Shown: positions 1-35,680, numbered from the stretch's first letter. The stretch: 64,000 nt of DNA from an uncultured Actinomycetes bacterium (GCA_963762075.1 CAVXJC010000006.1:503943-567942), one strand, 5' to 3'. A program made the numbers and translations. Notes: generated by a model from the letters alone, not told the origin.

Positions 1-738
1 GCCTTCCGACTCATGCACGACATCGGGTTCACCCCAGTACGGGGCGGGCGGCCCCTGGCCGAGATGCGGAAGATCGCCTCCGCCGGCATCGAGTACGGGT
101 GGCGCGTACCCGCGGTCAAGTGGCTGATGGTCGAATCCTTGTTCACTGGTGGGGTCGCCTTCTACGCGTTCTACGCGCTGCAGCCCTACTTGCTCGAGCT
201 CTACGGTGACCCTCAGGCCTACCAGATCGCGGGCCTGGTCGCGGCGATCGTGGCTGGCGCGCAGATCCTCGGCGGCATCGCTGCGCCGATGGTCAGGCGC
301 CTCTTCCATCGCCGTACCTCCGCGCTGATCGCAACGAGCGCCCTCGGGGTGCTGGCCCTCGCCTTGATCGGACTCCTCGAGAGCTTCTGGGCTGTGATCG
401 GTCTCGTCGCCGTCTGGGGATTGCTGTTCGCGGCTTCCACCCCGATCCGCCAGGCCTACATCAACGGGCTGATCCCGTCGCGGCAGCGGGCAACGATCCT
501 TTCGTTCGATGCGCTGATGGATTCGACCGGCGGGGTCTGGGTTCAGCCCGTGCTCGGCCGTGTCGCCGACGTATGGGGTTACGCGCCCTCGTACCTGATC
601 GGCGCAGCCATCTCGCTCGTGGGGGTGCCGTTCCTGTTCGCCTCCAGGAGTAAGGGGGCCCCTGCCGACACCATCGAGACCTCCGAGAGCGAGACCGAGA
701 CCGCCAACGCACATGAACCCGCGGGCGAACCCGTCTGA
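1..738 (+). CDS. MFS-type transporter, C-terminal portion; the 5' end lies outside the window
   Basis: Hydrophobic multi-TM sequence with MFS-like loops; the frame is open from base 1. Confidence 0.6.
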   Translation, partial: AFRLMHDIGFTPVRGGRPLAEMRKIASAGIEYGWRVPAVKWLMVESLFTGGVAFYAFYALQPYLLELYGDPQAYQIAGLVAAIVAGAQILGGIAAPMVRRLFHRRTSALIATSALGVLALALIGLLESFWAVIGLVAVWGLLFAASTPIRQAYINGLIPSRQRATILSFDALMDSTGGVWVQPVLGRVADVWGYAPSYLIGAAISLVGVPFLFASRSKGAPADTIETSESETETANAHEPAGEPV

Positions 739-887
739 GGAATCGATCCGGCGGTCTGTAGCGGCGACCGACCGACGACGCGGGTGTCGATCGACGCGTG
801 TCGACCTCCAGCGCCCGCCATCCTCGTGTGAAGCGCTCCCAGCATGACGCGATCACCGATCTCACAGTCGGCCCGCAAGCGCGAGGA

Positions 888-3800
888 TCATGCGCCGGGT
901 TCGGATACCTCGAGATCGGCGAAGTTCGCCGACGTCTTGCCGAACTCCCACCATCCGCGCACCCGAGGCTTGACGACCGCGAGGCTGCGCCCGTACACCA
1001 TCGGGATCACGACGACGCGATCGGCGACCGCCATCCGATCGGCATCGTGGAACAACGCCAGCCTTCCTCGGTCGCTCCGCTCCTGCCGTGCCCGCTCGAT
1101 CAACTCGTCGAACGGCGGATGGTCGAACCCTCCTTCGTTGGTCCGGCTCTGCGAATGGAACAACAGCCGCAGGAAGTACTCGGGATCGGCGTAGCCGGGC
1201 AGCCATCCGGTGAAGTAGACCGGCGCGTGCTCGCGCGGTGGTCGCATCGTCGCGGTCTCTTCCAGCGACCACGTGTGCCTCTCGATCGCAACGCCAAGGG
1301 CCGAGCGCCACGACTCGATCACCGGTTCCAGGATGGGGAGATCGTCGTCGAGGAACGCGACGGGGATCGGCCCCTCGACGCTCGATCGCGCGAGGCACGC
1401 GCGTGCCAACTCGGGATCGAAGCGCAGGGCGATGTCGGGTGTGTGCCCCTGCAACGCAGGGGGCACGATTCCGCCCGTGGCCACGACCATGTTCGCGGGC
1501 ATCGCAGCGGCGAGGACATCGCGATCGATCGCATGGGCGAGCGCCCGCCGAAGGTCGAGATCCGATCCGGTCTCGCTCGTGTGATCGAAGGCCAGGTATC
1601 CCGACCATGCCGCCGGGCCGATCGACGCATCGGGCACGTCGCGCGACATCAGATCGGCCAGGCGCGGGGTGTAGCGAGCTGCGATGACGTCGATCTCGTC
1701 TCGTTCGTAGCCCCCGAGCGCCTCTCCGATCCTGGCTCGTGTGTAGCCGACCGACGCGACGTTGCCCACACGACCCCCGTTGTCACCCGTCCGGCGCTCG
1801 AGGACGAGCCCGTCCGAGGACCGCCGAGCGACCCGGAACGCCCCCGAGACGACCTGCTTCCCCGGCTCGGTCCATCCATCGCCGAGAGCCTCGATCGCGT
1901 GCCGGGGCTGCGGTCCACCGTCCGGACGGTTCATCACGCTCATGAAGTACGGCGCCGGCGCTACGAGCCGGAACTCCACCGTCTGGTCGTCGAGGGCCCG
2001 CACACCGATCCGCCGGGGGTCGGCCTCCTCGCCCAGGTAATACTCCTGACCCCGTTCCAACACGAAATAGATCGCCACCGATGATCCCGGTGTCGTCGGA
2101 TCGAGCACGCGCTTCACGCCGAACTCGACATCGTGCGCCGTGAGCGGTGAGCCATCGGACCACGTGAGACCCTGGCGAAGCTTGAAGACGTAGCGCAAGC
2201 CGTCGTCGGAGATCTCCCATCGCTCGGCCAACGACGGCACGATCGTTCGCTCGGGCCACTGCTCGACCAGGCGATCGAACAACTGCATGCAGAGTTGGAT
2301 GTTCGGCCAGGCGATGGCCGAGCGCGGATCTGGGTCGTCCGGCAGGAAGCTCGTGGCGATGTTGAGCGAGGCCGACGGCGTTCGGGCCGGCGGCTCGGCC
2401 GGCGTCCAGCGCTCGAACGCTTGTTGATACGCCTCGTTCGCCTCGGCGAACCGCAGCGAGACATGGAGCGCGAGCGCCAACTTGAATTGGACGAGCGCGA
2501 TCTCTCGGTCTTCGCCTCGGCGATCGAGGAGCGGCAGGAGCTCCCGGTAGTACGCGATCGCCTCGTCGAGAGCGTATTCCTGTCGGGCGCGATCTCCTGC
2601 GATCGTCAGGTAGCGAACCGCCTTGTCACCGTCCTGCGCACCGAGCCAATGGTGTGCCAACAGTCCGGCGACCTCGTCTTCTCGGTCGGCGTGGTGCTGC
2701 TCCAGCCACTCCGCGGCCCTGCCGTGCAGTCGACGTCGATCCCCGGCGACCAGAGTCCGATACGCCGTTTCCTGGATCAGCGCGTGCGTGAAGCGGTACT
2801 CGGGTTCTGGCCATCGACGCCCCTCGCGCACCAGATCGACCCGCATGAGCTCTCCGAGCGCGGCGCGCACGTCACCGCTGGCCACCATCTCCTGCAGCAG
2901 CGACAGGCTGAACGTGCGACCCAATACCGATGCTGCGACGACGGCATCGTGAACCGATGGTTCGAGTCGGTCGAGACGCGCGAGGATCACCTTCTCGACC
3001 GTGGGTGGTACTTGCAGGTCGACCTCGTGATCGAATCGCCAACCCTCCTCGTCGTGAACGAGCGCACCGGCGTCCACCATCGAGCGAACCATCTCTTCCA
3101 GGAAGAAGGGATTGCCTTCGGCCGACTCCAAGATGCGCGGCTCCACGACCGGCGGAAGGGTTGCTCGGCCGACGAGCGCCGCAAGGAGCTCGCGTCCCGC
3201 GACGCCGGACAGAGCATCGAGGCTCACCTCCCGGAACCGATGCGGAAGCGTGCGAGCCACGTCTTCCTTCAACCGCCACGACGGATGATCGCGTTCGGGA
3301 CGAGCCGTGCAGAGCAGCAGCAACGCTTCGTCCTCAGTGTCGCCAACCAGGCGTTCGATCAGCTGCAGTGACGTGGCGTCCGCCCAATGGAGATCCTCGA
3401 GCAAGACGGCCAACGGGCCCTCGGCCGCCAATCCCTGCAGCGTCTGGCGCACCACCTCGAACGTTCGGTACTGCAGCGCCTCCGGCGAGAGCTCACCGAG
3501 CCGAGACGACTCGTCGGCTGTTGGCGCGAGTCCGAGCAGTGCCGAGAGGTACGGGACCATCTCTCCGGATCGAGCCGCGAACAAGCGGTCGATCTGCCGG
3601 CGAAGCGCCACGCGGACCAGCAGGTCGGGTTCGTCGCCTCGTGCCCCCAACCACGATCGCAGCAGGTCACGGAACGGCCAATATTGGAACGACCCTCCGT
3701 AGCTCACGCACCGACCCTCGAGCCAGAGCGACCTGCCGAACGCAGGCGTCGTCGCACCGAAGGCACGACGCAGCTCGTGCACCATGCGGGTCTTGCCGAT

Positions 3801-4598
3801 ACCAGGCTCGCCGGTAACGAACACGATGCCGCCTGTTCCTTCCGCGACCGCCTCGACGGCGTCCTTGGCCTTGGCGAGCTCTCGGTCTCTGCCGACCATG
3901 CGGGGGGATGATCTGGGGTCGGCCGAACCGTGCGGCCGAGCGCCGTCGCCCGTCACCGTGAACGCGGCCACCGGGTCGGCCTTGCCCTTGAGCTCGAACG
4001 TCTGCCCGTCGTCCCACGTGAACCGGTCCGCCACGATCCGTCTGGTCGCTTCGCCCACCAGCACGGAGCCCGGCTGAGCCTTGGACTGGAGCCTCGCGGC
4101 GACGTTCACGGCGTCCCCCATCGCGCTGAATTCGACCCGCTCACCGGCACCGATCGCTCCGGTCACCACCAGCCCGGTATTCACCCCGACGCGCACGTTC
4201 AGCGCGTCGACCGCCCAGGCCTCGGCCACCTCACGTGCGAAGCTCTCGATGTCGTCGACGATGCGCAGACCGGTGCGAACCGCACGCTCAGCGTCGTCTT
4301 CGTGAGCGATCGGCGCGCCGAAGAGCGCCAGCACCCCGTCGCCGGCCAGATCCTTCACGGTGCCGCCGAACGCATCGACGGCAGAGACCATGCGTGCGAC
4401 GGCATCGCCGACGACGAGCTTCAATTCCTCGGGATCGAGACGCTCACCCAGCGCGGTCGACCCCACCAGGTCGGCGAAGAGCGCCGTCACCACCCGTCGT
4501 TCGTCGCGCACCTCCACCGGGTCATCCTGCCCGTCGCAGCCACGAGCGGCAATGCGGACGCGAGGAGTGGCTCTCGATCCGCGCGATCCCGGCATCAC
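888..4598 (-). CDS. Multidomain signalling protein: class III adenylate/guanylate cyclase + AAA ATPase (P-loop GEPGIGKT) + helical/TPR-like region + C-terminal family-5 solute-binding-protein (DppA/OppA-like) domain
   Basis: Cyclase motifs VVTALFADLVGST and GDGVLALFGAP; Walker A GEPGIGKTRMV; the C-terminal ~500 aa resemble SBP_bac_5. Start taken at MPGSRG (4598) to avoid overlap with the downstream TetR; the full ORF runs to 4709. Confidence 0.8.
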   Translation of the reverse strand: MMPGSRGSRATPRVRIAARGCDGQDDPVEVRDERRVVTALFADLVGSTALGERLDPEELKLVVGDAVARMVSAVDAFGGTVKDLAGDGVLALFGAPIAHEDDAERAVRTGLRIVDDIESFAREVAEAWAVDALNVRVGVNTGLVVTGAIGAGERVEFSAMGDAVNVAARLQSKAQPGSVLVGEATRRIVADRFTWDDGQTFELKGKADPVAAFTVTGDGARPHGSADPRSSPRMVGRDRELAKAKDAVEAVAEGTGGIVFVTGEPGIGKTRMVHELRRAFGATTPAFGRSLWLEGRCVSYGGSFQYWPFRDLLRSWLGARGDEPDLLVRVALRRQIDRLFAARSGEMVPYLSALLGLAPTADESSRLGELSPEALQYRTFEVVRQTLQGLAAEGPLAVLLEDLHWADATSLQLIERLVGDTEDEALLLLCTARPERDHPSWRLKEDVARTLPHRFREVSLDALSGVAGRELLAALVGRATLPPVVEPRILESAEGNPFFLEEMVRSMVDAGALVHDEEGWRFDHEVDLQVPPTVEKVILARLDRLEPSVHDAVVAASVLGRTFSLSLLQEMVASGDVRAALGELMRVDLVREGRRWPEPEYRFTHALIQETAYRTLVAGDRRRLHGRAAEWLEQHHADREDEVAGLLAHHWLGAQDGDKAVRYLTIAGDRARQEYALDEAIAYYRELLPLLDRRGEDREIALVQFKLALALHVSLRFAEANEAYQQAFERWTPAEPPARTPSASLNIATSFLPDDPDPRSAIAWPNIQLCMQLFDRLVEQWPERTIVPSLAERWEISDDGLRYVFKLRQGLTWSDGSPLTAHDVEFGVKRVLDPTTPGSSVAIYFVLERGQEYYLGEEADPRRIGVRALDDQTVEFRLVAPAPYFMSVMNRPDGGPQPRHAIEALGDGWTEPGKQVVSGAFRVARRSSDGLVLERRTGDNGGRVGNVASVGYTRARIGEALGGYERDEIDVIAARYTPRLADLMSRDVPDASIGPAAWSGYLAFDHTSETGSDLDLRRALAHAIDRDVLAAAMPANMVVATGGIVPPALQGHTPDIALRFDPELARACLARSSVEGPIPVAFLDDDLPILEPVIESWRSALGVAIERHTWSLEETATMRPPREHAPVYFTGWLPGYADPEYFLRLLFHSQSRTNEGGFDHPPFDELIERARQERSDRGRLALFHDADRMAVADRVVVIPMVYGRSLAVVKPRVRGWWEFGKTSANFADLEVSEPGA

Positions 4599-4662
4599 GC
4601 GCGTGAAGCAGGCACAGCGCACTTGCAGCGAAACGGCCTCTTTCGATCGCCGCTCGCACCGC

Positions 4663-5271
4663 TCACTCGGCAGGACGCAGCGCCGCCCGAACGAACAGCA
4701 GCACCTCACGCTCGCGGCGACGGAGCGACGCCCGGCCGCTGTCCGCTCCGACCACGGCGCTCAACACGCTCGCTTCGGTGAGCGAGCCGACGACTGCCGT
4801 GTAGAGCGTGAACAGCAGCATGGCGGGGTCCTGCTTGCGGATCTCGCCGCTATCCATGCCGGCCTGCAAGAACTCGATCGCGCGGCGGCGGAGCGGATCG
4901 AGCACGCCGGCGAACCGGTCGAATGCGGCGGGCCCGAGTCGGGCGGCTTCGCGTACGAACATCGGGAACTCGGGCCATTCCGCCGCGAGCCCGAAGACCC
5001 CGTGGATCACGGCCTCGGCGCGATCCCAATAAGTCTCGGCGCCCTCGAGTGCGGCGGCGAGCTCCGAGCCGAGCCGTTCCCCTGCCGCCTGCAGGCACGC
5101 CTCGAGCAAGGCTTCCTTGTTCGGGAAGTAGTAGAGCAGCGTCTGCTTGCGCACTCCGACCGCGGTGGCGATGCTCTCGATGCTCGCGCCCTTGTATCCG
5201 TCGCGACCGAACTGGTGGATCGCCTCGGCGACGATCGTGGTGCGCCGTTGCTCGCCGCCCGTGCGAGGCAT
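4663..5271 (-). CDS. TetR family transcriptional regulator
   Basis: N-terminal HTH IVAEAIHQFGRDGYKGASIESIATAVGVRKQTLLYYFPNKEAL, typical of TetR. Confidence 0.85.
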   Translation of the reverse strand: MPRTGGEQRRTTIVAEAIHQFGRDGYKGASIESIATAVGVRKQTLLYYFPNKEALLEACLQAAGERLGSELAAALEGAETYWDRAEAVIHGVFGLAAEWPEFPMFVREAARLGPAAFDRFAGVLDPLRRRAIEFLQAGMDSGEIRKQDPAMLLFTLYTAVVGSLTEASVLSAVVGADSGRASLRRREREVLLFVRAALRPAE

Positions 5272-5274
5272 GCG

Positions 5275-6183
5275 CTAATCCCAGGTCTTCCTCGTACCAC
5301 GGCGCTCGATCGGACGCGAGCCTTCCCAGCGTTTGCGCCACTCGGGGCCGCTCGGCCCGTACGGGGGCGGGGTCTCACCACGCTCTGCGCGCTGCAACGA
5401 TTCCCACCATGTCGTGCGGTCCTCGTCGAGGAGCTCCGCCACCGCCTGGGTCATGCGAGCGGTGAACGCCTGATGAGTCTCGCCCTCGGCGGGGAACAGC
5501 GGCGCGCCGATCCGCACCCGCACCGGGGGACGGCCTGCCCGCGGCCACCAACTGCCCTTGGGCATCGCCTGGTACGCCCCGCGGATGCCCACCGGCACCG
5601 CGCCGACACCCGCCTCGATGCAGAGCCGCGCGGTGCCATGACGGAACCGCTTCGTGTGGCCGTCGGGCGATCGGGTGCCCTCCGGGAACACCACGAGGCT
5701 CCAACCATCGTCGAGGAGCTCGCGAGCCTTCGTGACCGCGTGCCGCCCACCGCGCGACCGGTCGATCGGGAACGCTCCGTAGGCGAGCGCAGTGAACGAT
5801 GCTCGCCACCACACGTCGAAGAAATAGTCCCGTGCGGCGCCCACAGCCGTCTTCTCCTGCCATCGTTCGGGCAGGGCCGTCAGGATGATCGTCGCGTCGA
5901 GGTGGCTCGAGTGGTTCGAGTAGAAGATCACACCGCCCTCGATCGCCGTGAGGTGCTCGAGGCCGTAGACGCGCAACGCGACCTGGCTGCGCAGCAGCGG
6001 GCCGAGGCCGGCGTTCAAGATGACGAGCCGCGCTGCTGTGCCCGCACCCGAACGGGCCCAGTCGGTCGGGAACACCGCGTCCTCGCGAGGCGGCGTGTGC
6101 GGCTCGGCGCTACGGGGCACCATGGGGCGGCGACCCCATCGGAACCCCTCCGACATCGTCTTCAGCTCGTCGCGCACGCCCAT
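5275..6183 (-). CDS. 1-acyl-sn-glycerol-3-phosphate (lysophospholipid) acyltransferase, PlsC family
   Basis: HX4D motif NHSSHLD and FPEGTRS motif; start may be the internal M at 6156. Confidence 0.8.
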   Translation of the reverse strand: MGVRDELKTMSEGFRWGRRPMVPRSAEPHTPPREDAVFPTDWARSGAGTAARLVILNAGLGPLLRSQVALRVYGLEHLTAIEGGVIFYSNHSSHLDATIILTALPERWQEKTAVGAARDYFFDVWWRASFTALAYGAFPIDRSRGGRHAVTKARELLDDGWSLVVFPEGTRSPDGHTKRFRHGTARLCIEAGVGAVPVGIRGAYQAMPKGSWWPRAGRPPVRVRIGAPLFPAEGETHQAFTARMTQAVAELLDEDRTTWWESLQRAERGETPPPYGPSGPEWRKRWEGSRPIERRGTRKTWD

Positions 6184-6196
6184 CGCTCAGGTCTCC

Positions 6197-7786
6197 TCAG
6201 TGCACGTCGGCGATCATCACGGGCGGCGCGTGGAAGTAGGTGATCTCGGGCGAAGAGCCGACCGTGTCCTTGGCCATCTCGAGCGCGTCTCGCATCGAGT
6301 CGGCGCGCCGGTAGCCGAGTCGCGCCACGCTCGACGGGTTCCCACCGACGAAGATCACATCGCCCGCGTGATCGCGTCCGTGTGCGCCCCAGTACCACAT
6401 GTAGAACGGATGCACGCCGTGGTACGCGTGGCTCGTGCGGTACAGGTGCACGTACCAGGGGTCGGTGGCGTAGCGTTCCTCGAACTCCTTCTCGATCGTC
6501 TTCGGATCGGTGCTCTCGGCCAGCACTTCCTCGAAGAAGTCGATGTAGCTCGGGTGATGGATCGAGTGGAACTCCCACGGCACCGGGTGATGCAGGATGA
6601 TCACGCCACTCTGCTTCACGAGCGGCTTGTTGCGATACATGTTGAACAGGTACCCGAGCCCGAGGCAGTGCACGAGGATCGGGTTCAGGATGGAGTTCAC
6701 GTTGTACGGCCCGAGGTAGGGCACGCCCATGATCAGCACATCGGCCTGCCCCTGCACCTCCACGAGCTGCTGGCGATGCAGGTTCGTCAGGGTGCGTTGG
6801 TGCACCGCCTCGACCTCACCCGCATTCACGCCGGTCAGCTTGTAGGGAGCCTCGATACGCCGGAAGAACTCACGTCGTACTCGGGGCGGTGCCATGTCGT
6901 TGGCCTTCTTCGCCGCGATCATCAGTGCCTGATCGCTCGCCCCCCACTCCCATTCCCGCTTGTTCAGGAAGCCGAGATTCGACGGGAACGTCTCCGAGTT
7001 GACGGTCGTCTCGATCTGGAAGATCTTGACGCCCGCATCACGCAGTACCCTGCCCATGCGATTCACCGAATCGTTGATCGCGCTGTGGCCTTCTCGCGGA
7101 TCCATATACGACTTCGAGTGCATCATCGTGTTCACGTTGTGGTGGTGCTTGAGGCTCCGGTATCCCGCGAGCCCGACCGCGACCGACTTGTGACCGCCGT
7201 CCATCGCGACCAGGTTGATGTTCACGTAGACGATCAGATCACTCTCGGCGGCGCGCTTGGAGATCTCGACCAGCTCGTCGTCGTCGGTCCTACCGATCTC
7301 GACCAGGCCCTGCGGATCTTCGGCGTCGAAGTTCTTCAGGTGTTCCGGGTAGAACGAGCGGTACACGCGCTCGCCGACCGCTCGCCGGATCTCCTCGGAG
7401 GTCATGCGCCGGTGGAGCGCGGTCGCGACGATCAGCTCGAGGTCGTCGACACCGGCGCGGGCGGCGAGTTCGATCACGTGCTCGAGGATCGGTTGGCGCA
7501 CGTCGGGCGTGCGCATCGGCGGCAGCGGGATCGAGATGTCGTCGATCGCGATCGTGAGCTTCATGCCACCGAACATCAGCTCAGGAAGCGGCTTGGAGTC
7601 GCCGACGGGGTTCAACAGCGCGTGACGGACCGCGGCCGGTACGTCGCGGATACCGGGGAGCGGGTCGGGCGGATACACGACGCGGGTGCCGAGGGGGAAC
7701 TTCTGCATGCGGTAGCCCTCGCCCTGATGCACGAGCAGCGGAGGCGTTCGCTCGTCAACCTGCAACACGAATCCCGGTCTGGGCAT
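6197..7786 (-). CDS. LarA-like (DUF2088 / lactate-racemase-domain) protein, extended (529 aa)
   Basis: N-terminal fold similar to LarA; a candidate Lys/His cluster SLKHHHNVNTMMHSKSY; no larB, larC or larE nearby. Confidence 0.55.
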   Translation of the reverse strand: MPRPGFVLQVDERTPPLLVHQGEGYRMQKFPLGTRVVYPPDPLPGIRDVPAAVRHALLNPVGDSKPLPELMFGGMKLTIAIDDISIPLPPMRTPDVRQPILEHVIELAARAGVDDLELIVATALHRRMTSEEIRRAVGERVYRSFYPEHLKNFDAEDPQGLVEIGRTDDDELVEISKRAAESDLIVYVNINLVAMDGGHKSVAVGLAGYRSLKHHHNVNTMMHSKSYMDPREGHSAINDSVNRMGRVLRDAGVKIFQIETTVNSETFPSNLGFLNKREWEWGASDQALMIAAKKANDMAPPRVRREFFRRIEAPYKLTGVNAGEVEAVHQRTLTNLHRQQLVEVQGQADVLIMGVPYLGPYNVNSILNPILVHCLGLGYLFNMYRNKPLVKQSGVIILHHPVPWEFHSIHHPSYIDFFEEVLAESTDPKTIEKEFEERYATDPWYVHLYRTSHAYHGVHPFYMWYWGAHGRDHAGDVIFVGGNPSSVARLGYRRADSMRDALEMAKDTVGSSPEITYFHAPPVMIADVH

Positions 7787-7799
7787 CTGTCGTCGTCTC

Positions 7800-9038
7800 C
7801 TAGGTCACGGGTTGGTGAGTCGTCGAGTGTTCCTGCGGGGCGAAGGCGACCTTGAACGTGCCGAGGCGCCCGGCAGACATGGCGTGGTCGATCGCGTCAC
7901 GCCAACGGGCGAGCGGATACGTCGCGCCGACCATCGGGGCCAGCATCGGCCCGATCTGGTGCGCCAGCTCGAGCGCGAGCGCGAACGAGTGGCGCCTGCC
8001 GTCATCGGTCTGCTCCATGGCGGTGGTGTAGGCGCCGACGAGCTCGAGCTCACGGAACCACAGCGGCGTGAGGTCGGCGCCGCCCGACGGGATGCCGCTC
8101 ACCACCACTCGGCCTCCCGCCTTCGTGGTTCGAAGAGCCATGTCGAGCGCGCGCTTCGTTCCTGTGCACTCGAACACCACGTCGGCACCGCCGAGCAAGA
8201 AGTCCTGACCGCGCTCGGGGGAAAGCTTGACGGCATGCCCCGCGCGGCGAACGGCCTTCAACGCGTGTTCAGGGCGCACGACCTCGTCGGCACCGGCCAT
8301 CTTCGCCGCCGCGCGCTGCGCCGAGTGCTTGGCCGCCACGATCACGCGGCCCGGCTGCGCGAATCGTCGGAGCGCAACCTGGGTCAGCAACCCGACCGTG
8401 CCCGAGCCGATCACGAGCACGTCGGCGCCTTCGGGCACACGTGCACGGAAGACCGAGTGGATGGCCGTCGCGAGGGGCTCGATCAGCACCGCGGCGTGAT
8501 CGTCGATGCCGTCGGGCACCGCCCAGAGCTGCGAACGATGCGCGAGCAACATGCGGCTCCATCCGCCTCCCGTGCTCGAGCAGAACCCTGTCTGCAAACC
8601 CGCCTTCAGCGAGCCGACCGACACCCGGTCGCAGCGTCCGTACTCACCCACGGCGCAGTGCTCGCAGAGCTCGGCCTGTTCCCGCGCCGCACAGCCCAGC
8701 ACCGATGAGAGCGTCACTCGCTGGCCTGCTTTGTGATCGCCGCAGTCGTCGAGCAACTCCCCGACGACCTCGTGGCCCGGCACGAACGGCATCGACACGA
8801 GCGGGGAGAAGTAGAAGGAGGACTCTCCCGCGATCGTCGAGAGGTCGCTGCCGCAGATGCCCGCGAGCGTGGGCTTCAGCCGGGCCCAGCCGACGCGCGA
8901 TGGCTCGGGGTCGGCCTGAGTAACCAGTCGCAGTGGCGTCAACGGCCCGCCCGCCACGAGGCCGGGCACCTTCCTGCCCGCGACCCGGGCGCCCACGTAC
9001 CGCGGCATCGAGCGGAAGTACTCGAGCGCGAGCGCCAT
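7800..9038 (-). CDS. Zinc-dependent medium-chain alcohol dehydrogenase (threonine/sorbitol-DH-like)
   Basis: GICGSDL and PGHEVVGEL zinc-site motifs, Rossmann VIGSGTVG; start uncertain (possibly MPRYVG at 9005). Confidence 0.8.
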   Translation of the reverse strand: MALALEYFRSMPRYVGARVAGRKVPGLVAGGPLTPLRLVTQADPEPSRVGWARLKPTLAGICGSDLSTIAGESSFYFSPLVSMPFVPGHEVVGELLDDCGDHKAGQRVTLSSVLGCAAREQAELCEHCAVGEYGRCDRVSVGSLKAGLQTGFCSSTGGGWSRMLLAHRSQLWAVPDGIDDHAAVLIEPLATAIHSVFRARVPEGADVLVIGSGTVGLLTQVALRRFAQPGRVIVAAKHSAQRAAAKMAGADEVVRPEHALKAVRRAGHAVKLSPERGQDFLLGGADVVFECTGTKRALDMALRTTKAGGRVVVSGIPSGGADLTPLWFRELELVGAYTTAMEQTDDGRRHSFALALELAHQIGPMLAPMVGATYPLARWRDAIDHAMSAGRLGTFKVAFAPQEHSTTHQPVT

Positions 9039-9054
9039 CAGCCCGCCAGTCCGT

Positions 9055-11355
9055 TCACGCGCGCACCGCCGGTTTGGGGAAGCGCACCCGGGGCATACCC
9101 TTGGTCATCTGCCATTCCTCGATCGGCCAGCGGCGGCGACGCGCGTACCGGTAGAGCGACGAGTCGGGTGAGACCGCGACCGGGTTGCCCACCGCTCGGA
9201 GCAGCGGAAGATCGGAGTATGAGTCCGCATATGCGTAGGAATGACGCAGGTCGACCCCTCCGAGCGTTGCGTACCGGCGGAGCCATGCCGCGCGCGCCTC
9301 GCCCACGAGCGGCGGCGCCGACATGAACCCGGTGAAGCGCCCGTCGCGCTTCTCGAGCTCGGCGCCGATCACCACATCGAACAGCGGCGAGAGCGGGCGC
9401 ACGAACGGCTCGGCGGCGGCGGTGATCAAGATCGTCAGATGGCCGGCGGCGCGATGCTCTCGGATACGGCGGATCGCCGCCGCGCTCGCTTTCTGCAGCA
9501 TGAACTCGGCCACGTGACTCGTCACGAGTCGGTCGATGCCCTCGACGCTCGCACCCTCGAACCGCCGGAAGAAGGTACGCAGGAAGTCGCCGCGGTCGCG
9601 CCGATCGATCTGCAGGTATCCAGGGATACGCCCGAAGACGCTCGCGAGCTCGCGCGGCCATTCCTCGGGTGTCAGGTCGGCCATGCGCGCCCACACGTAG
9701 CTCTCCACCACGTTCGACGTGATGATCGTGCCTTCCATGTCGAAGAGGGCGAGCACGGGCTCGTCACGTTCGCGGATCGTCACACTCGCGCCGCGGCCGT
9801 CCCGACGAGAGAGCTCACGCAGCGACTGGGTGACCGCGGGAGAGTGCACATCCTTCATGTAGTGCTTCCAGTCGATCGCCGCGGCATCGAAGGGGAACGT
9901 TTCCGCATCACCGGACGAGAGCGACTCGAACAGCGCAAGCGTTCGGTCGTCGGTGTAGACGACCTCCGCCTCGGTGTACATGCCGTACAGATCGCTATAG
10001 CGCTTCACGAAGTCGATGCGCGCCTTGTCACGATCGACGCGACGAACGGCGTCGCGCATCGACTTCGATTTCGGCATGTGGGTCACGACCTGCTCGGCGA
10101 TATCGGTGAGCCGCTCGGCCCGGCGCAGCATGCGCTCGACGGTGAGGTTGCCGGGGAAATCCCACTCGGGCACCTTGTGCTCCCCACGACCCCGTTCGGG
10201 AAGAGGGTGCTCCTCGAAGTATTCGCGGATCCACTCGTACAACTCGAAGAAGCGCAGCGGGTTCCGGGAGCCCGAGCTCACGTTGTAGTGCGCGGCCTCA
10301 CCCGGGGCAGGCGGGTGCGCGGCGATCGCGAGCAACGCGTTCACCACGAAGTCCACCGGGATGATGTCGATGATGCCTTCGGGGATCCCCGGGAACTCCG
10401 GGATCTGCCCCAGCCCGTAGGCGCGGATGATCGGGTCGGCCATCTTGAATCCGTCGATCCACCCGGGGAACGGATGCGAGTACGCCGACTCGATGATCGA
10501 CGGCCGCACGATCGAGAGCGGGAGATTCGCCTCGGCCGCGAGCTCCTCGACCGCCCGTTCGCCCATCGCCTTCGTGAAGGTGTAGACGTCGGGCCATCCG
10601 AGCGAGCGTGCCCTGGTGCGCCCGTACTCGACCAGCCGCTTGGAGACCCACTTCAGACGACGATCCTCCGCGTCGTCGGCGACGGTCGTCGGCCCCGCTC
10701 GCGAGTGCTCGTCGCGGGCGAGACCCATGAACGCCGAGAGCATCTCGGGCTTGCGGCTGGCGGCTTCCACGTCGCTGCGGGCAGACATGGCGAGCTCGAG
10801 CTCGAGCCGGTAGTCGACTCGGTGCTCCAGGGGCCCCTCGGGAATCACGCCCTTCTGCACTCCGGCGACGTAAGCGGTCGAGACGTGCACCAGCGCGGGG
10901 GTCGATCCACCGCCGATCACCCCTCGATAGAGGTTCATCGCGCCCTGAAGGTTCGTTATGAACGCTTCGTCGATGGGCGGGTCGAAGCTCACCGTCGCGG
11001 CCGAGTGCATCGCGACGTCGATGCCCGCGGGAACCTCTGGCTGCCCACGACCGAAATCGCCGTCGACCACATCGACCCGATCGTCGAGCATCCGTCTGAG
11101 CCCGTCCTCACCGACGCGCTCCCGCAACGTGTCGAACGCCGGCTTCCGGAACAGGTACTCGACTCGTTCGCGGCTCGTCGCTCCCGTCTGCGATCGCACG
11201 AGCAGCACGATGCGAGTCTCTTCGAAGTCCGCCAGCAGCCGTTCGAACACCACCTGCGCGAGGAAGCCGGTCACCCCGGTCAACAACATCGTCTTGCCCG
11301 AGAGCGCTTCGACGATCGAAGGCGTCGCGGAGGCGCGTGCCTTGCCCTCTACCAT
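9055..11355 (-). CDS. Fatty acyl-CoA reductase (male-sterility/NAD_binding_4 domain) fused to a C-terminal HAD-IB phosphatase domain
   Basis: N-term LLTGVTGFLAQ plus YTFTK (Yx3K); C-term DMEGTIITSNV...ADSYSDLPLL, HAD-IB-like. Confidence 0.75.
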   Translation of the reverse strand: MVEGKARASATPSIVEALSGKTMLLTGVTGFLAQVVFERLLADFEETRIVLLVRSQTGATSRERVEYLFRKPAFDTLRERVGEDGLRRMLDDRVDVVDGDFGRGQPEVPAGIDVAMHSAATVSFDPPIDEAFITNLQGAMNLYRGVIGGGSTPALVHVSTAYVAGVQKGVIPEGPLEHRVDYRLELELAMSARSDVEAASRKPEMLSAFMGLARDEHSRAGPTTVADDAEDRRLKWVSKRLVEYGRTRARSLGWPDVYTFTKAMGERAVEELAAEANLPLSIVRPSIIESAYSHPFPGWIDGFKMADPIIRAYGLGQIPEFPGIPEGIIDIIPVDFVVNALLAIAAHPPAPGEAAHYNVSSGSRNPLRFFELYEWIREYFEEHPLPERGRGEHKVPEWDFPGNLTVERMLRRAERLTDIAEQVVTHMPKSKSMRDAVRRVDRDKARIDFVKRYSDLYGMYTEAEVVYTDDRTLALFESLSSGDAETFPFDAAAIDWKHYMKDVHSPAVTQSLRELSRRDGRGASVTIRERDEPVLALFDMEGTIITSNVVESYVWARMADLTPEEWPRELASVFGRIPGYLQIDRRDRGDFLRTFFRRFEGASVEGIDRLVTSHVAEFMLQKASAAAIRRIREHRAAGHLTILITAAAEPFVRPLSPLFDVVIGAELEKRDGRFTGFMSAPPLVGEARAAWLRRYATLGGVDLRHSYAYADSYSDLPLLRAVGNPVAVSPDSSLYRYARRRRWPIEEWQMTKGMPRVRFPKPAVRA

Positions 11356-11443: not shown

Positions 11444-14400
11444 CTAGCGGAGGCCGACGTTGACGAAGTGGGTCGTGCCGTCATCCAGCAAGACGCCGAT
11501 CCGCCAGAATCGATTCGCCTGCGTTTTCGCGGTCCCCCAGTTGTAGATGTACTGCTGGTCCACGGAATCCCAGCGATAGGTGCCCCCGCTTGTGGGTGAG
11601 CTCGTGTAGACCGACTCGTCGATCGGAGCGGTCAACGCGCCACCGGGCGCGGGCGCGAGCCAGACAGGAAGCATGTTGGTCTGCACCACCCTGCCGTCTG
11701 CGGTCCGCAGTCGGAACTTCACCGGTACGGTCGATCCCGCCTTGAAGATGCTGGCGCCGGTTCCAACCTGATGCGCCGTGTCGTTGATCGGCTGCAGGAA
11801 CCCGCCGAACGCGTACACGACCCGGTACGACCCCGTGACCGACGTCGCGTTCCCGGCGAGGTCGGTCGCGGTGGCGGTGAAGGAGTACGTCCCGACACCG
11901 TTGGCGAGCCCGCCCGAGATGCTCATCCGGCAGGAACCGTCGAGTCCCGAGCCGGCGTCCGCCGCCGAGCACGTTCCCGAGGGGACCGCACCGAGCGTGT
12001 AGATGCCTCCGTTCGCGACGCCTCCGATCGTGATCGATGGATGTGTCACGTCGATGTTCAGGCCCTCGACCGCTGCCCTACGCTCGTTGCCGGCCGCGTC
12101 GACGGCGACGCCGCTCACCGACTGCCCGGCGCCCTCGCCCGAGAGCACCGCATCGGCGGGGCAGGTCGCGATGCCCGAGAGCCCGTCGTGACAGCTGAAG
12201 CGCACGGTGACCGCCGAGGCGTACCACCCGTGGGCGTTCGGCGTCGTGGTCGGCGCCCCCGAGATCGACGGAGCGGTCTCGTCCAGCTTCACCTCGACCG
12301 AGTCGGTCCCTCGGTTGCCGGCCATGTCGGAGGCCTCACCGTGCACGGTCGTCCCCCCGGTTTCTTCGGTGATCGTGACGTCGGCGGTGACCGTGTCATC
12401 GTCCACACCCGAGCCGTCCTCGTCGTCGACCGCGTCGAACCGAACCGTGACGTCCGATCGGTTCCAGCCGGCGGCGTTCGGCGACGGCGTGAGAACGTGC
12501 GACACGGCCGGAGCGATCGTGTCGTAGTCGATCTGCACGGCGCCGGGCGTCTCCTCGTTGCCGGCGGCGTCGACGGCATAGAACCGCACCGTCGCGTCGC
12601 CCGACCCGCTCAGCGGCACCGCAACACGCGCCGATGCGCCGGGTTCGGTGTGCCACGCGCCCGCACCGATGCGGTAGCGGATCTCCTGGACGCCCGACAG
12701 CCCGACCTGGTCGTCAGCCGAGAGCTCGATCGTGGCGTCGTCACGGCAGTAGCCGTTCGCACCGGTGCACGACAGCGTCGCCGTCGTCGACGGTGCCCGG
12801 CTGTCGATGTCGATGCCGTGCAGGGTCGTGCTGGCCACATTGTCGGCGCGGTCGGTCGCCGCGCCCGTCACGAACTGGTCGGCGCCGTCCTCGGAGAGCA
12901 CGGTGTCGGCGGCGCACTCCTGCGTACCGGAGAGCAGGTCCTCACACGTGAAGTGCACGCGGACGGCGCCGTTGAACCACCCTGCGCCGTTCGGGGAGCG
13001 TGGCGCGAGGTCATCGTCCACCGTGGTGGCCGCGATCGTGGGGGCGGTTCGGTCGATCATGATGCCGGAGTAGGCGCCTGTACCCTCGTTGCCCGCCTTG
13101 TCGAACACCGAGACGGGTCCAGCGACCAGGCCGACTCCCTCGCCGGTGACGGTGATGTCGTCCGGAAGGGTGGAAGGGTCGACGCCGGAGAGGCCATCCT
13201 CAGCCGCCCATCCGACCGTGACGTCGCTCCGGTACCAGCCGAATGCGTTCGGCTGCGACGAAGGCGTGCCCGACAGGGTCGGGACTGTCAGGTCGATGTT
13301 GATGCCAGCGACCGAGACCGAGGTCGTGTTACCGGCGTTGTCGAGCGCCATACCGGTGACGCTCTGTTCCTCGCCCTCGTTCACCACCTGCGCGGGATCG
13401 CTGCAGGCGGCGACGCCAGACTCGGGATCCTCACACAGAAAGTCGACCACCACCGTGCCGTTGTTCCAACCGAAGCCGTTGGCGGCGGGCTGACGGTTGG
13501 CGGCGATCGTGGGCGGGTTGCCGTCGATCTTCACGGTGATCGTGTGACCGGGAGCAGTCTCGTCTTCCACGTTGCCGGCGAGGTCCTCGCTCCAGAACGT
13601 GATGGTGTGCTCCCCGGTCAAGGTGTGCTGGAACGGTCCGGTGTATTGCCGGGCGGAGCCTCCGTCGACGCGGTATGACGTGGTTGCGATCCCGGACAGG
13701 TCGGGTCCGGTGGCGAGGGTGACCTCCACGCCGCCCGCGTGCCACCCGCTCGCGAGCGGATCGGGCAGGATCGCCGTGGTGCTCGGAGCGGTCCGGTCGA
13801 TCTTGATACCCGACACCGAGCGGTCGCGTGAGTTCCCGGCCCGGTCGGTCACGTGCGCGGTCGCGGAGAGGTCGTCGCCCTCGCCGGTCACGACGCTGTC
13901 CTGCGGGCACGTGCCCTCGATGCCGGAGAGCGCGTCGAAGCACGACCATCCAACGATCACGTCGCCGCGGTACCAGCCGTGCTCGTTCGGATCCGTCGCG
14001 GTCTCGCCGGTGAGCGACGGCTTCGTCTCGTCGATATCGATGTCACCGACCACCGATCGGCTCTCGTTGCCGGCACCATCAGTGGCCAGGCCGGTCACCG
14101 ACTGGTCCTCGCCTTCGCCCAGCGTCTCGTCACCGGTGCAGTCCGCGACACCCGAGAGCAGGTCGGTGCACGTGAACGTCACCGTGACGGGAGCGTCGTA
14201 CCAGCCCGAGCCATTCGGGTCGCGGTCCCGGGCACCCGAGATCGTCGGGTCGGTCATGTCGATCGACACGCTCGCCTCGTCGGTCGCTTCGTTGCCGGCG
14301 GTGTCCACGGCCGAGCCGGTCACGAGCTGCCCCGCCCCCTCGCCTGACACGACCTGCGGGCCGGTGCAGCTCGCGATACCCGAGAGGGTGTCGGTGCAGA

Positions 14401-15844: not shown

Positions 15845-16073
15845 CAGCCTCAACAACTCCTCGTATGGCGAGCCCCCCAACCGCCGTTCGGCGTCACCCA
15901 TGCGGCCCGTCGCCGCGATGACCCAGGATGCACTCCACGCACCCGACCCGGGAACCGCTGAAGGTCGCAACGTTGCGCAGGGGGTGCGGGCCCGACAGCC
16001 TGGGCCGAAGGTCCGGGGATCGAAGGGCAAAGGGCGGAGGGAGCTCCATCACCGCCACTAGACTTCTCAGCCC

Positions 16074-35666: not shown

Positions 35667-35680
35667 GTTCCACGATCGGC

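What the first reader, a model, noticed from the sequence alone, without database searches (positions are those of the whole stretch)
888..4598. Giant adenylate cyclase / AAA ATPase / helical / family-5 solute-binding-domain fusion protein
One uninterrupted ~1237-aa minus-strand ORF joins four modules. The first is a class-III nucleotidyl cyclase catalytic domain; the metal/substrate motifs FADLVGST and GDGVLALFGAP are visible in the translation. The second is a P-loop NTPase of the AAA_16/STAND kind (GEPGIGKTRMV). The third is a long helical/TPR-like spacer. The fourth is a C-terminal ~500-aa region that reads like a DppA/OppA/NikA-type periplasmic binding protein (SBP_bac_5). The established actinobacterial pattern for cyclase-ATPase proteins (for example the M. 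tuberculosis Rv0386 type) ends in a LuxR HTH, not a ligand-binding SBP fold. There is no signal peptide or TM segment, so the SBP module would be cytoplasmic. That suggests a ligand-gated cAMP generator in which a peptide, metal or opine-like ligand is sensed by the SBP module through a STAND switch. It sits directly downstream of, and co-oriented with, a TetR gene and a lipid-enzyme operon.
Basis: partly seen in the sequence, partly recalled or inferred. Interest (0 to 1): 0.75.

Follow-up and report, generated by a model that had tools for sequence, protein, structure and literature searches.

The report
Cytoplasmic cyclase–STAND–OppA-like sensor fusion protein
This gene encodes one large cytoplasmic protein joining a cyclic-nucleotide-making enzyme, an ATP-driven molecular switch and a domain normally found outside the cell in nutrient uptake; the type is common in soil Actinomycetota but unstudied and mislabelled in databases as a transporter part.

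Summary
One uninterrupted minus-strand gene, most likely 888..4517 (1209 aa, not ~1237), has four parts:
- a class III nucleotidyl cyclase (aa 1-192);
- a MalT-like STAND/AAA_16 NTPase (204-590);
- three TPR-like helix pairs (591-705);
- a complete OppA/MppA-type SBP_bac_5 fold (712-1209).

It has no signal peptide and no TM segment. HMMs, PDB sequence hits and two confident AlphaFold models (pLDDT 88 and 92) support all four parts.

It is not a one-off. More than 7,900 database proteins match, and the best ~200 share the architecture at 62-100% identity, mostly in Actinomycetota/Gaiellaceae MAGs. The NOD-TPR-SBP_5 cassette also recurs in Chloroflexota and Actinomycetota behind other N-terminal effectors: SARP/BTAD, Ser/Thr kinase, CHAT protease and HTH. 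That is the hallmark of a sensor-switch unit.

- cAMP is not assured. The purine-selecting Lys position holds an invariant Asp, as with the Glu of guanylate cyclases.
- This clade has lost the OppA residues that anchor peptides (D419→Gly, R413→Phe), so a canonical peptide ligand is unlikely.

TetR/lipid-operon synteny is confined to close relatives. I found no paper on this fusion. Verdict: a new variant of a known kind, moderately interesting.

The parts
888..4517 (-). Whole gene: 1209 codons plus the stop at 888-890. It encodes cyclase - STAND NTPase - TPR - SBP_5.
   Evidence: ORF list, translation, 100%-identical 1209-aa protein P0001, and the same architecture in ~200 homologues.
4515..4528 (-). 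Probable translation start: GTG at 4515-4517, with an AGGA ribosome-binding site at 4525-4528.
   Evidence: Upstream sequence GCAGGATGACCCG-GTG. The start agrees with database homologues.
3942..4517 (-). Class III nucleotidyl cyclase catalytic domain (aa 1-192).
   Evidence: Pfam PF00211 at 77.6 bits. PDB sequence hits are Cya2 2w01 (E 7e-31), CyaC 1wc0 and CyaB 3r5g. The model shows a beta-alpha-beta cyclase fold.
4350..4355 (-). K55-D56. D56 occupies the purine-specifying position (Lys in adenylate cyclases, Glu in guanylate cyclases). It is invariant in the clade.
   Evidence: Gap-free alignment to Cya2 (idEfmGD), its E488K variant 6fht, and CyaC (vdKfvGD). K55 is present in 202 of 203 and D56 in 203 of 203 relatives. 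Other STAND cyclases carry K, R, Q or H here.
4092..4127 (-). S131 is the second specificity position. N138 and R142 are the transition-state residues (FSAMGDAVNVAARL).
   Evidence: Alignment to CyaC and Cya2. N138 and R142 are each present in 202 of 203; position 131 is G, A, S or T. Coordinates checked.
3909..3941 (-). Disordered, non-conserved linker between cyclase and NOD (aa 193-203).
   Evidence: pLDDT <50 at 193-203. Mean identity is 9% here against 63-71% in the domains.
2748..3908 (-). STAND nucleotide-binding oligomerisation domain (NBD, helical domain, winged helix; aa 204-590).
   Evidence: Pfam AAA_16 at 100.2 bits. The model has pLDDT 92.5. The top Foldseek hit is MalT 8bob_C, followed by Apaf-1, PH0952 (6mfv), CED-4, Avs3 and NLRC4.
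3789..3812 (-). Walker A, GEPGIGKT (aa 236-243).
   Evidence: Translation. G236, G239, G241 and K242 are invariant in 203 sequences.
3378..3404 (-). Walker B with the MalT-type extension, LLEDLHWAD (aa 372-380).
   Evidence: Translation. D375, W378 and D380 are invariant; position 374 is E or D.
2403..2747 (-). TPR-like helical arm: six helices in three pairs (aa 591-705).
   Evidence: Helices 591-608, 613-626, 630-646, 650-667, 670-686 and 690-703 in both models. Weak TPR_12 hit. This is the most conserved module, at 71% mean identity.
891..2384 (-). Complete cluster-C solute-binding-protein fold (SBP_bac_5, OppA/MppA/DppE-like; aa 712-1209). It has no signal peptide.
   Evidence: Pfam PF00496 at 179.7 bits over 1-366 of 368 positions. 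PDB sequence hits are OppAIV 4gl8 (8e-44) and OppA 1b05 (5e-40). Foldseek target-normalised TM-score is 0.78-0.83 to liganded OppA, MppA and DppE.
1176..1208 (-). GWLPGYADPEY motif (aa 1104-1114). G1108 replaces the OppA Asp419 that binds the peptide N-terminus.
   Evidence: Alignment to OppA 'GWCADYNEP' and OppAIV 'GWSGDYADP'. G1108 is present in 203 of 203 in the clade. Most other STAND-SBP_5 proteins keep GWxADYPDPD.

Best explanation
The gene encodes a soluble cytoplasmic signalling enzyme built on the STAND plan: effector, NOD switch, then sensor.

Shown:
- The N-terminal class III cyclase has every catalytic residue.
- The central module is a MalT-like P-loop NOD with intact Walker A and B motifs.
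- The C-terminus is a complete OppA-type bilobed binding fold. It follows three TPR-like repeats directly and has no export signal.
- The NOD-TPR-SBP_5 block is an evolutionarily mobile cassette placed behind several different output domains.

Inferred, by analogy with MalT, PH0952 and Apaf-1:
- In the resting state the TPR/SBP_5 sensor holds the ADP-bound NOD closed.
- A cytoplasmic small molecule binds in the SBP_5 cleft. The resulting Venus-flytrap closure releases this autoinhibition.
- ATP then replaces ADP and the NODs multimerise.
- The flexibly tethered cyclase domains, which are active only as dimers, are brought together and produce a cyclic nucleotide.

The product is cAMP or cGMP. 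The Asp56/small-residue dyad leaves this open and leans towards guanine-type recognition. The ligand is probably not a free-N-terminus peptide.
For: Domain identity.

Catalytic and P-loop residues are invariant over 203 relatives: D16, D60, N138, R142, K177/K179, G236-K242 and D375.

Models: full length pLDDT 88.2 and pTM 0.78; NOD-TPR pLDDT 92.5 and pTM 0.87.

Fold matches:
- SBP module against OppA, MppA and DppE: target-normalised TM-score 0.78-0.83.
- NOD against MalT first, then Apaf-1, PH0952, CED-4 and Avs3.

Cassette evidence:
- Of 37 long cluster representatives found with the SBP part alone, 37 have SBP_bac_5 and 36 have AAA_16. The N-termini are BTAD (19), cyclase (11), Pkinase (9), CHAT (1) and HTH_3 (1).
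- Local domain mapping shows NOD-mid-SBP in nearly all of the top 150.
- Apparent 'SBP-only' hits are mostly gene fragments that begin inside the TPR region.

The SBP module is as conserved as the enzyme modules: 68% mean identity against 65% (cyclase) and 63% (NOD).

There is no TM segment or signal peptide, and no ABC permease or ATPase genes lie next to it.

A disordered, unconserved linker (aa 193-203) tethers the cyclase. This fits activation by proximity.

The literature accepts that SBP-family domains can serve as sensor domains of cytosolic signalling proteins (PMC9602780). The STAND autoinhibition and multimerisation model is described in PMC6468293 and PMC10427625.
Against: - Nothing here shows ligand binding, ATP-dependent oligomerisation or cyclase activity. 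All three are inferred.
- The three OppA residues that anchor peptide termini are missing in this clade. The pocket could be re-tooled or non-functional.
- The MSA behind the models is shallow, mostly 60-85% identity, so the inter-domain packing is less certain than pTM suggests.
- The nucleotide product is ambiguous.
Confidence: 0.6

Rival explanations
1. The SBP_5 module is not a small-molecule sensor. Its pocket has degenerated, and the fold serves as a protein-protein docking or autoinhibitory scaffold. The real input, a partner protein or a modification, would arrive through the TPR arm, much as MalT is controlled by MalY, MalK and Aes.
For: Loss of OppA D419, R413 and H371 equivalents, with Gly fixed in 203 of 203 relatives. 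TPR repeats are classical protein-binding modules and are the most conserved part of the protein. Some relatives carry 2-4 tandem SBP_5 copies, which is unusual for a simple ligand sensor.
Against: The whole bilobed fold is retained at full length and conserved as strongly as the catalytic domain. Most other members of the cassette family keep the peptide-anchoring Asp, which suggests genuine ligand binding is ancestral. Many SBP_5 proteins bind non-peptide ligands without that Asp, including nickel complexes, opines, sugars and glutathione (the PDB list includes such proteins).
Confidence: 0.2
2. It is an anti-phage or conflict system: an Avs-like STAND whose sensor recognises a phage product, and whose cyclase makes a signalling nucleotide in the manner of Pycsar.
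For: PADLOC PycC models hit the cyclase domain (best E 4e-19). Avs3 is among the structural neighbours of the NOD. One cassette relative carries a CHAT protease effector, and some relatives have repeated sensors. The base-specifying dyad is non-canonical.
Against: - The PycC hits are weaker than the generic Pfam cyclase hit and the Cya2/CyaC matches. They reflect shared class III ancestry.
- No Avs or other defence STAND model matched.
- The gene is single-copy in the window and vertically conserved at 62-100% identity.
- In its closest relatives (≥67% identity) it sits in a stable housekeeping neighbourhood (lipid operon, G6PD/PGI, ribosomal protein S4), not in a variable island.
- No downstream effector gene is paired with it.
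Confidence: 0.06
3. It is what the public annotation says: an ABC-transporter substrate-binding protein, or a chimera of two adjacent genes produced by an assembly or frameshift error.
For: NCBI names close relatives 'ABC transporter substrate-binding protein'. The SBP_bac_5 hit is the strongest single domain hit.
Against: There is no signal peptide, lipobox or TM segment. No permease or ATPase genes are nearby. 711 residues of cyclase, NOD and TPR precede the SBP fold in one frame. The same continuous ORF occurs on ~200 independent contigs from different projects.
Confidence: 0.01

Closest known systems
Mycobacterium tuberculosis Rv0386 (also Rv1358, Rv2488c): class IIIc cyclase - MalT-type ATPase - TPR - LuxR HTH
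   Same: An N-terminal class III cyclase starts at residue 1, followed by an AAA_16/MalT-like NOD and TPR-like helices. The purine-specifying dyad is non-canonical at the same positions: Rv0386 Gln57/Asn106 (own knowledge of Castro et al. 2005; PMC-held preprint 10.1101/2024.03.06.583649) against Asp56/Ser131 here. The role of the ATPase is unstudied in both.
   Different: Rv0386 ends in a LuxR DNA-binding domain. This protein ends in a 498-residue SBP_5 fold and has no HTH. The dyad residues also differ. Some SBP-less STAND cyclases in other phyla do carry the Rv0386-type Q/N pair.
MalT (E. coli) and PH0952 (Pyrococcus): bacterial and archaeal STAND regulators with helical-repeat sensors
   Same: MalT is the best structural match of the NOD (8bob_C), and PH0952 (6mfv) ranks third. 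They share Walker A, the hhhhDD Walker B and the NBD-HD-WHD-arm order. Their mechanism is ligand-relieved autoinhibition followed by ATP-dependent multimerisation (PMC6468293, PMC10427625).
   Different: In MalT the effector (LuxR) is C-terminal and the sensor is a helical SUPR/TPR domain that binds maltotriose. Here the effector is an N-terminal enzyme, and the TPR is followed by a bilobed SBP fold.
OppA / MppA / DppE periplasmic peptide-binding proteins (cluster C SBPs, Pfam SBP_bac_5)
   Same: The full fold is present from the first beta-strand to the C-terminus. Sequence E-values are 1e-44 to 1e-30, and target-normalised TM-scores are 0.78-0.83 to liganded forms. The WSDG and GW..Y.DP signature motifs are conserved.
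   Different: - It has no signal peptide or lipid anchor and is cytoplasmic.
- It is not next to ABC transporter genes.
- The peptide-terminus anchors D419, R413 and H371 are replaced by Gly, Phe and a gap.
- It is covalently fused to a STAND NTPase.
AfsR-type large SARPs and PknK-type kinases (SARP or kinase - STAND - TPR regulators of Actinobacteria)
   Same: They follow the same modular logic. Direct relatives of this cassette carry BTAD/SARP or Ser/Thr kinase domains in place of the cyclase. Some carry SARP and cyclase together (P0129, P0270).
   Different: Characterised AfsR and PknK end in TPR repeats without an SBP_5 domain (own knowledge). The output here is a cyclic nucleotide rather than DNA binding or phosphorylation.
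TOMM system kinase/cyclase fusion protein (NCBIfam TIGR03903)
   Same: The cyclase-AAA_16-TPR core aligns over model positions 261-928 (E 6e-84).
   Different: The score of 282.7 is far below the 705.75 cut-off. There is no kinase domain, and the C-terminus differs.
Synechocystis Cya2 guanylate cyclase (PDB 2w01)
   Same: It is the best PDB sequence match of the cyclase domain (E 7e-31). It has an acidic residue at the first specificity position (Glu488, against Asp56 here) and a small residue at the second (Gly, against Ser or Gly/Ala/Thr). In Cya2, E488K alone switches it to an adenylate cyclase (PMC5995499; PMC4215837).
   Different: The acidic residue is Asp rather than Glu. The Tyr of Cya2 that boosts GC activity is Ala141 here. 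Cya2 is a CHASE2 membrane receptor, not a STAND protein.

Membership tests
Class III nucleotidyl cyclase (Pfam PF00211) | Profile match above the gathering score | tested here: met
   77.6 bits against a cutoff of 21.9, covering profile positions 8-175 of 183.
Class III nucleotidyl cyclase (Pfam PF00211) | Two metal-binding Asp and the transition-state Asn/Arg pair | tested here: met
   D16, D60, N138 and R142 align with CyaC and Cya2. They are present in 202-203 of 203 relatives.
Adenylate cyclase (ATP-specific class III) | Lys at the first and Asp/Thr at the second purine-specifying position | tested here: not met
   The first position is Asp56 (203 of 203). The second is Ser131, and G, A, S or T across the family. 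The role of these positions is stated in PMC4215837 and PMC5995499.
Guanylate cyclase (GTP-specific class III) | Glu at the first specificity position with C, S, T, A, G or H at the second | tested here: inconclusive
   The first position is acidic but Asp, not Glu. The second position fits. Activity is not testable here.
STAND NTPase, MalT-like (Pfam AAA_16) | Profile match, Walker A GxxxxGK[ST], and a Walker B with acidic pair | tested here: met
   AAA_16 scores 100.2 bits against 32.6. GEPGIGKT and LLEDLHWAD are invariant at the key residues.
STAND NTPase, MalT-like (Pfam AAA_16) | NBD-helical-winged-helix fold followed by a repeat arm | tested here: met
   The model has pLDDT 92.5. Foldseek hits are MalT 8bob_C (TMq 0.52, TMt 0.62), then Apaf-1, PH0952, CED-4 and Avs3.
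STAND NTPase, MalT-like (Pfam AAA_16) | Inducer- and ATP-dependent multimerisation | not testable with these tools
   Needs SEC-MALS or cryo-EM with and without ATPγS and ligand.
Cluster C solute-binding protein (Pfam SBP_bac_5, OppA/DppA/MppA) | Profile match and the complete bilobed fold | tested here: met
   179.7 bits against 32.4 over 1-366 of 368 positions. Target-normalised TM-score is 0.78-0.83.
Cluster C solute-binding protein (Pfam SBP_bac_5, OppA/DppA/MppA) | Extracytoplasmic location (signal peptide or lipobox) | tested here: not met
   There is no hydrophobic segment (maximum KD 1.56), and 711 cytoplasmic-type residues precede the fold. The standard view that SBPs are extracytosolic is stated in PMC8050422.
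Cluster C solute-binding protein (Pfam SBP_bac_5, OppA/DppA/MppA) | Gene linked to ABC permease and ATPase genes | tested here: not met
   The neighbours are MFS and TetR in the window, and CBS, HAD or Cyclase-family genes in relatives.
Oligopeptide/dipeptide/murein-peptide binders (OppA, DppA, MppA) | Asp that salt-bridges the peptide alpha-amino group (OppA D419), plus carboxylate anchors (R413, H371) | tested here: not met
   D419 aligns to G1108 (203 of 203), R413 to F1102, and H371 falls in a gap. The role of these residues is from my own knowledge of the OppA structures (Tame et al. 1994-95).
Rv0386-type cyclase-ATPase-LuxR regulators | C-terminal LuxR-type HTH | tested here: not met
   No HTH family appears in the Pfam or NCBIfam scans. 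The C-terminus is SBP_5. The Rv0386 architecture is given.
TOMM kinase/cyclase fusion (TIGR03903) | Score above the curated cut-off; N-terminal kinase | tested here: not met
   282.7 against 705.75. Only model positions 261-928 match.
Pycsar cyclase PycC (defence) | Specific PycC profile match, an adjacent effector gene and a defence-island context | tested here: not met
   The PycC hits (best 67 bits) cover only the generic cyclase core. There is no effector neighbour, and the housekeeping synteny is conserved.

The most novel reading that the evidence does not exclude
The family is a cytoplasmic, metabolite-gated STAND cyclase whose product is not cAMP but cGMP, or another non-canonical cyclic nucleotide. 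The base would be selected by the invariant Asp56/small-residue dyad, and the trigger would be a non-peptide ligand held in a repurposed OppA fold. That would make NOD-TPR-SBP_5 a new, widespread class of STAND sensor. It would also reveal a major, unrecognised second-messenger input in soil Actinomycetota and Chloroflexota.
Probability: 0.2. Interest if true: 0.8.

Novelty: new variant of a known kind. Interest (0 to 1): 0.6.

Why it matters
STAND-linked cyclases such as Rv0386 have been known for 20 years, yet nobody knows what their ATPase and sensor parts respond to. This family attaches a fold whose ligands can be screened directly: a stable, crystallisable binding protein of about 55 kDa. 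That makes 'what switches a bacterial STAND cyclase on?' experimentally tractable.

The work also shows three further things:
- An OppA-type SBP, textbook extracytoplasmic, has been recruited as an intracellular sensor.
- The sensor-switch cassette is reused with SARP, kinase, protease and cyclase outputs in two large soil phyla.
- Thousands of database entries named 'ABC transporter substrate-binding protein' are really signalling enzymes.

The invariant Asp at the base-selecting position raises the possibility of widespread bacterial cGMP signalling.

Tried and rejected
1. Exact-sequence look-up of the window's own protein (P0001) found no contig on record. Context was taken from P0004, P0031 and P0060 instead.
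2. The promoter/terminator scan of 600-5400 found nothing on either strand. Whether the gene is co-transcribed with the TetR gene is unresolved. The 145-nt gap and the L002 interruption argue against an obligatory operon.
3. Five of the eight literature searches looked for this fusion or its domain combination (SBP_bac_5 with Guanylate_cyc, AAA_16, BTAD or STAND; cytoplasmic SBP sensors). None found a paper describing it. The library lacks most subscription journals, so this is absence in that library only.
4. The genome-contig scan chose its patterns from the Walker A and B motifs. It therefore returned mostly SBP-less cyclase-STAND-TPR proteins. Only L004-L007 matched at full length, and L017 and L047 matched the NOD-to-SBP part.
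5. The Foldseek afdb50 library was unavailable.
6. Model coordinates and PAE cannot be read by the scripting tool. I therefore could not do pocket mapping, check the orientation of K55 and D56, or examine the SBP-NOD interface.
7. The profile search meant to deepen the MSA returned mostly the same 62-68% identity clade. Proteins from the representative search could not be used for modelling, so the MSA stayed shallow.
8. The defence-system reading was checked with PADLOC and judged weak.
9. A paralogue search in the window found none.
10. The survey of actinobacterial cyclases (PMC2447327) is held only as abstract and references, so it gave nothing usable.

Full report
**1. The observation**

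The window holds an uninterrupted minus-strand ORF. The maximal ORF is 888..4709, 1273 aa.

The most likely start is the GTG at 4515-4517.
- It is preceded by AGGA with a 7-nt spacer.
- It is the start of a 100%-identical database protein of 1209 aa, P0001.

I therefore number the protein 1-1209, gene 888..4517. Codon-position GC (0.73, 0.49, 0.81) confirms the frame is coding.

**2. Domains**

Pfam gives three hits far above their gathering scores:
- SBP_bac_5: 179.7 bits, covering 1-366 of 368 profile positions.
- AAA_16: 100.2 bits.
- Guanylate_cyc: 77.6 bits.
- TPR_12 is only weak.

NCBIfam gives a sub-threshold partial match to the TOMM kinase/cyclase fusion family over the cyclase-NOD-TPR core. 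It also gives sub-threshold matches to OppA, MppA, DppA and NikA-type binding proteins.

Against PDB sequences:
- The C-terminal 475 residues match OppAIV (8e-44), OppA (5e-40), DppE and MppA.
- The N-terminal 200 residues match Cya2 (7e-31), CyaC and CyaB.

Two AlphaFold2 models were made:
- Residues 1-1200, from a 133-sequence alignment: mean pLDDT 88.2, pTM 0.78. The only disordered stretch is 193-203, between cyclase and NOD.
- Residues 200-715: pLDDT 92.5, pTM 0.87.

Foldseek against the PDB:
- The SBP module superposes on liganded OppA, MppA and DppE at target-normalised TM-score 0.78-0.83. It fits open forms less well, at 0.61-0.67.
- The NOD-TPR model hits MalT first (8bob_C), then Apaf-1, the STAND-TPR protein PH0952, CED-4, Avs3 and NLRC4.

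Six helices in three pairs (591-703) lead directly into the first beta-strand of the SBP fold at about residue 716.

By eye, residues 715-750 align with OppA T14-L48 (own recollection of the OppA N-terminus, consistent with the alignment start). The mature SBP fold is therefore complete, with the TPR arm standing where the signal peptide would be. No 19-residue window exceeds a Kyte-Doolittle mean of 1.56, so the protein has no TM segment or signal peptide.

**3. Catalytic competence and the specificity dyad**

In 203 aligned relatives, these residues are conserved in 197-203 sequences each:
- the metal-binding Asp pair, D16 and D60;
- the transition-state pair, N138 and R142;
- the phosphate-binding KGK, K177 and K179.

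Walker A (G236..K242) and Walker B (E374-D375, with H377, W378 and D380) are equally fixed.

The surprise is the purine-selecting position. In gap-free alignments, D56 aligns with three residues:
- Lys of CyaC (vdKfvGD);
- Glu488 of the guanylate cyclase Cya2 (idEfmGD);
- the engineered Lys of the E488K adenylate-cyclase variant (6fht).

PMC5995499 states that this single exchange switches Cya2 from GC to AC. PMC4215837 states that ACs conserve K and D, while GCs carry Glu plus C, S, T, H, A or G.

Here D56 is invariant (203 of 203) and K55 nearly so (202). The second position is Ser in the window and G, A, S or T across the family.

Other STAND-linked cyclases recovered from genomes show K, R, Q or H at position 56, usually preceded by D, E, A or N. 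They include Q/N pairs as in Rv0386. The 'KD' order is peculiar to this clade. The nucleotide product therefore cannot be called from sequence. An acidic first residue with a small second residue resembles GCs more than ACs, but Asp is not Glu.

**4. The SBP pocket**

OppA's 'aGWCADYNEPTSFL' aligns with 'tGWLPGYADPEYFL'.
- OppA D419 binds the peptide alpha-amino group. It corresponds to G1108.
- OppA R413 corresponds to F1102.
- OppA H371 falls in a gap.
- The roles of these residues are from my own knowledge of the OppA structures.

G1108 is fixed in 203 of 203 relatives. Across the wider set of STAND-fused SBP_5 domains, most keep 'GWxADYPDPD'. The Gly variant marks the Actinomycetota clade to which the window belongs. 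A canonical free-N-terminus peptide is thus plausible for the broad family but unlikely here.

The module is not decaying. Among 173 relatives below 70% identity, its mean identity to the query is 68%. The cyclase is 65%, the NOD 63%, the TPR 71% and the linker 9%.

**5. How common is it, and what is the unit of evolution?**

A single-sequence search returned 7,900 significant proteins, with the candidate cap reached. The best 120 all carry Guanylate_cyc, AAA_16 and SBP_bac_5 at 66-100% identity and 1200-1280 aa (one 1027-aa hit, P0044, lacks the cyclase hit).
- Most come from Actinomycetota MAGs.
- NCBI names them 'ABC transporter substrate-binding protein' or 'ATP-binding protein'.
- JGI names them 'ABC-type oligopeptide transport system substrate-binding subunit/class 3 adenylate cyclase'.

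A profile search gave the same picture, adding Gaiellaceae names.

Searching the SBP part alone against 1.84 billion cluster representatives gave 1,212 clusters at E ≤ 1e-30.
- Most full-length members of the top 150 are 1000-1600 aa, with the SBP at the C-terminus; the shorter entries are mostly fragments.
- Some are 2700-3500 aa with several SBP copies.

Pfam scans of 37 of the long proteins gave these counts:

| Domain | Members (of 37) |
|---|---|
| SBP_bac_5 | 37 |
| AAA_16 | 36 |
| BTAD | 19 |
| Guanylate_cyc | 11 |
| Pkinase | 9 |
| CHAT | 1 |
| HTH_3 | 1 |
| Zn-ribbon | 3 |

Local phmmer mapping with the window's own domains shows NOD-helical-SBP in nearly all of them. It also finds SARP+cyclase hybrids (P0129, P0270) and a SARP protein with four tandem SBP_5 domains, P0122. 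Apparent stand-alone hits are mostly gene fragments beginning inside the TPR region. Only three look truly secreted.

The conserved unit is therefore NOD-TPR-SBP_5, with exchangeable N-terminal effectors. That is the classic STAND layout, and it is the strongest computational argument that the SBP_5 domain is the sensor.

In species-representative genomes, full-length matches occur in Gaiellaceae, Thermoleophilia, other Actinomycetes and Anaerolineaceae. NOD-SBP matches occur in Caldilineales and Candidatus Aquidulcis.

**6. Context**

Upstream and co-oriented lie five genes:
- TetR (4663-5271);
- a PlsC-type acyltransferase;
- a Lar_N protein;
- a Zn-dependent alcohol dehydrogenase (Zn-ADH);
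- a fatty-acyl reductase-HAD fusion.

Downstream is a convergent MFS fragment.

The same upstream block precedes the homologue in L001 and L003. In L002 an opposite-strand ribosomal S4 gene and an ADP-ribosylglycohydrolase gene lie between TetR and the cyclase gene. None of these neighbours is found near the homologues in L004-L083.

This is lineage synteny, not evidence of a functional link. No promoter-like or terminator-like site was detected. No ABC transporter genes are adjacent, and there is no paralogue in the window.

**7. Mechanism**

Shown: the domain identities, intact catalytic and P-loop residues, complete SBP fold, cytoplasmic location, flexible cyclase tether and cassette modularity.

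Inferred, from the MalT/PH0952/Apaf-1 paradigm (PMC6468293, PMC10427625) and from the obligate dimeric nature of class III cyclases (established knowledge):
- The TPR/SBP_5 sensor keeps the ADP-bound NOD closed.
- Ligand capture and lobe closure release it.
- ATP binding drives multimerisation.
- Proximity lets the cyclase domains dimerise and make cNMP.

I put 0.6 on this. The main rival is a scaffold or protein-docking role for a pocket-degenerate SBP (0.2). A defence-system reading is weak. PADLOC hits are generic PycC homology, no Avs model matched, and the gene is vertically inherited in housekeeping surroundings. The transporter annotation and an assembly artefact are excluded.

**8. Comparison and novelty**

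The closest characterised relatives are the Rv0386-type cyclase-MalT-TPR-LuxR proteins, MalT/PH0952, AfsR- and PknK-type STAND regulators, and OppA/MppA. This protein is a member of three superfamilies: class III cyclases, STAND NTPases and SBP_bac_5.

It fails defining features of several narrower groups:
- ATP-specific ACs, because of the K/D dyad.
- Transport SBPs, on location and operon.
- Peptide binders, on the anchor residues.
- Rv0386-type regulators, for lack of an HTH.
- TIGR03903, on score.

Reviews state that SBPs are extracytosolic (PMC8050422). They concede in general terms that SBP-family domains can be sensor domains of cytosolic signalling proteins (PMC9602780).

I found no paper on an SBP_5-STAND or SBP_5-cyclase fusion. 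That search covers only the held library.

I rate it a new variant of a known kind. It is common in nature and visible in databases, but uncharacterised and misnamed. Interest is 0.6.

Noticed in passing
window 11444-16030 (-): A 1528-aa ORF made of many Ig-like repeats (weak Big_13 hit), with a hydrophobic N-terminal stretch. It is probably a secreted or cell-surface repeat protein.
   Followed up: no
window 5275-11355 (-); also L001, L002, L003: A conserved five-gene block: fatty-acyl reductase (NAD_binding_4 + Sterile) fused to a HAD hydrolase, a Zn alcohol dehydrogenase, a 529-aa Lar_N (lactate-racemase-like) protein, a PlsC-type acyltransferase, and TetR. The LarA-like member is an odd component for a lipid module.
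   Followed up: partly
window 29791-30056 (-); 35678-35766, 35983-36073, 47285-47360, 52572-52661 (-): Large bacterial SRP RNA (179.7 bits), plus three tRNA-Ser genes (GGA, CGA, GCT) and one tRNA-Arg (ACG). Rfam's gathering scan missed the two tRNA-Ser genes at 35.7-36.1 kb, which ARAGORN found.
   Followed up: no
P0122 (2843 aa), P0134, P0148 (2704 aa), P0259 (3461 aa): Relatives with 2-4 tandem SBP_5 domains. P0122 has them after a SARP-NOD-TPR core, and the fragment P0134 after a TPR region. In P0148 and P0259 they follow large N-terminal regions with no recognised domain.
   Followed up: partly
L005-L083 (cyclase-STAND-TPR genes in many phyla): The purine-specifying dyad of STAND-linked cyclases is extremely variable: K/T, K/G, Q/N as in Rv0386, Q/L, Q/T, R/S, R/A, H/T and others. 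A number also have His in place of the transition-state Asn. This suggests diverse or relaxed nucleotide specificities across the group.
   Followed up: partly
aa 1013-1027 of the protein = window 1437-1481 (-): The motif ATGGxVPPxxxGH(T/S)P at the predicted hinge region is invariant or nearly so, both in this clade and in the distant STAND-SBP_5 relatives (G1015, G1016, P1019, G1024, H1025). OppA has only a weak counterpart. The motif could mark the ligand site or the interface specific to the fused clade.
   Followed up: no
L001-L003, downstream of the homologous gene: A convergent PF04199 'Cyclase' (kynurenine-formamidase-like) gene follows the homologue, immediately in L002 and after one or two short genes (HAD hydrolase, CBS) in L003 and L001. 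In L001 and L003, G6PD/PGI/6PGD genes lie beyond it. In the window the downstream neighbour is an MFS fragment at the window edge instead.
   Followed up: no
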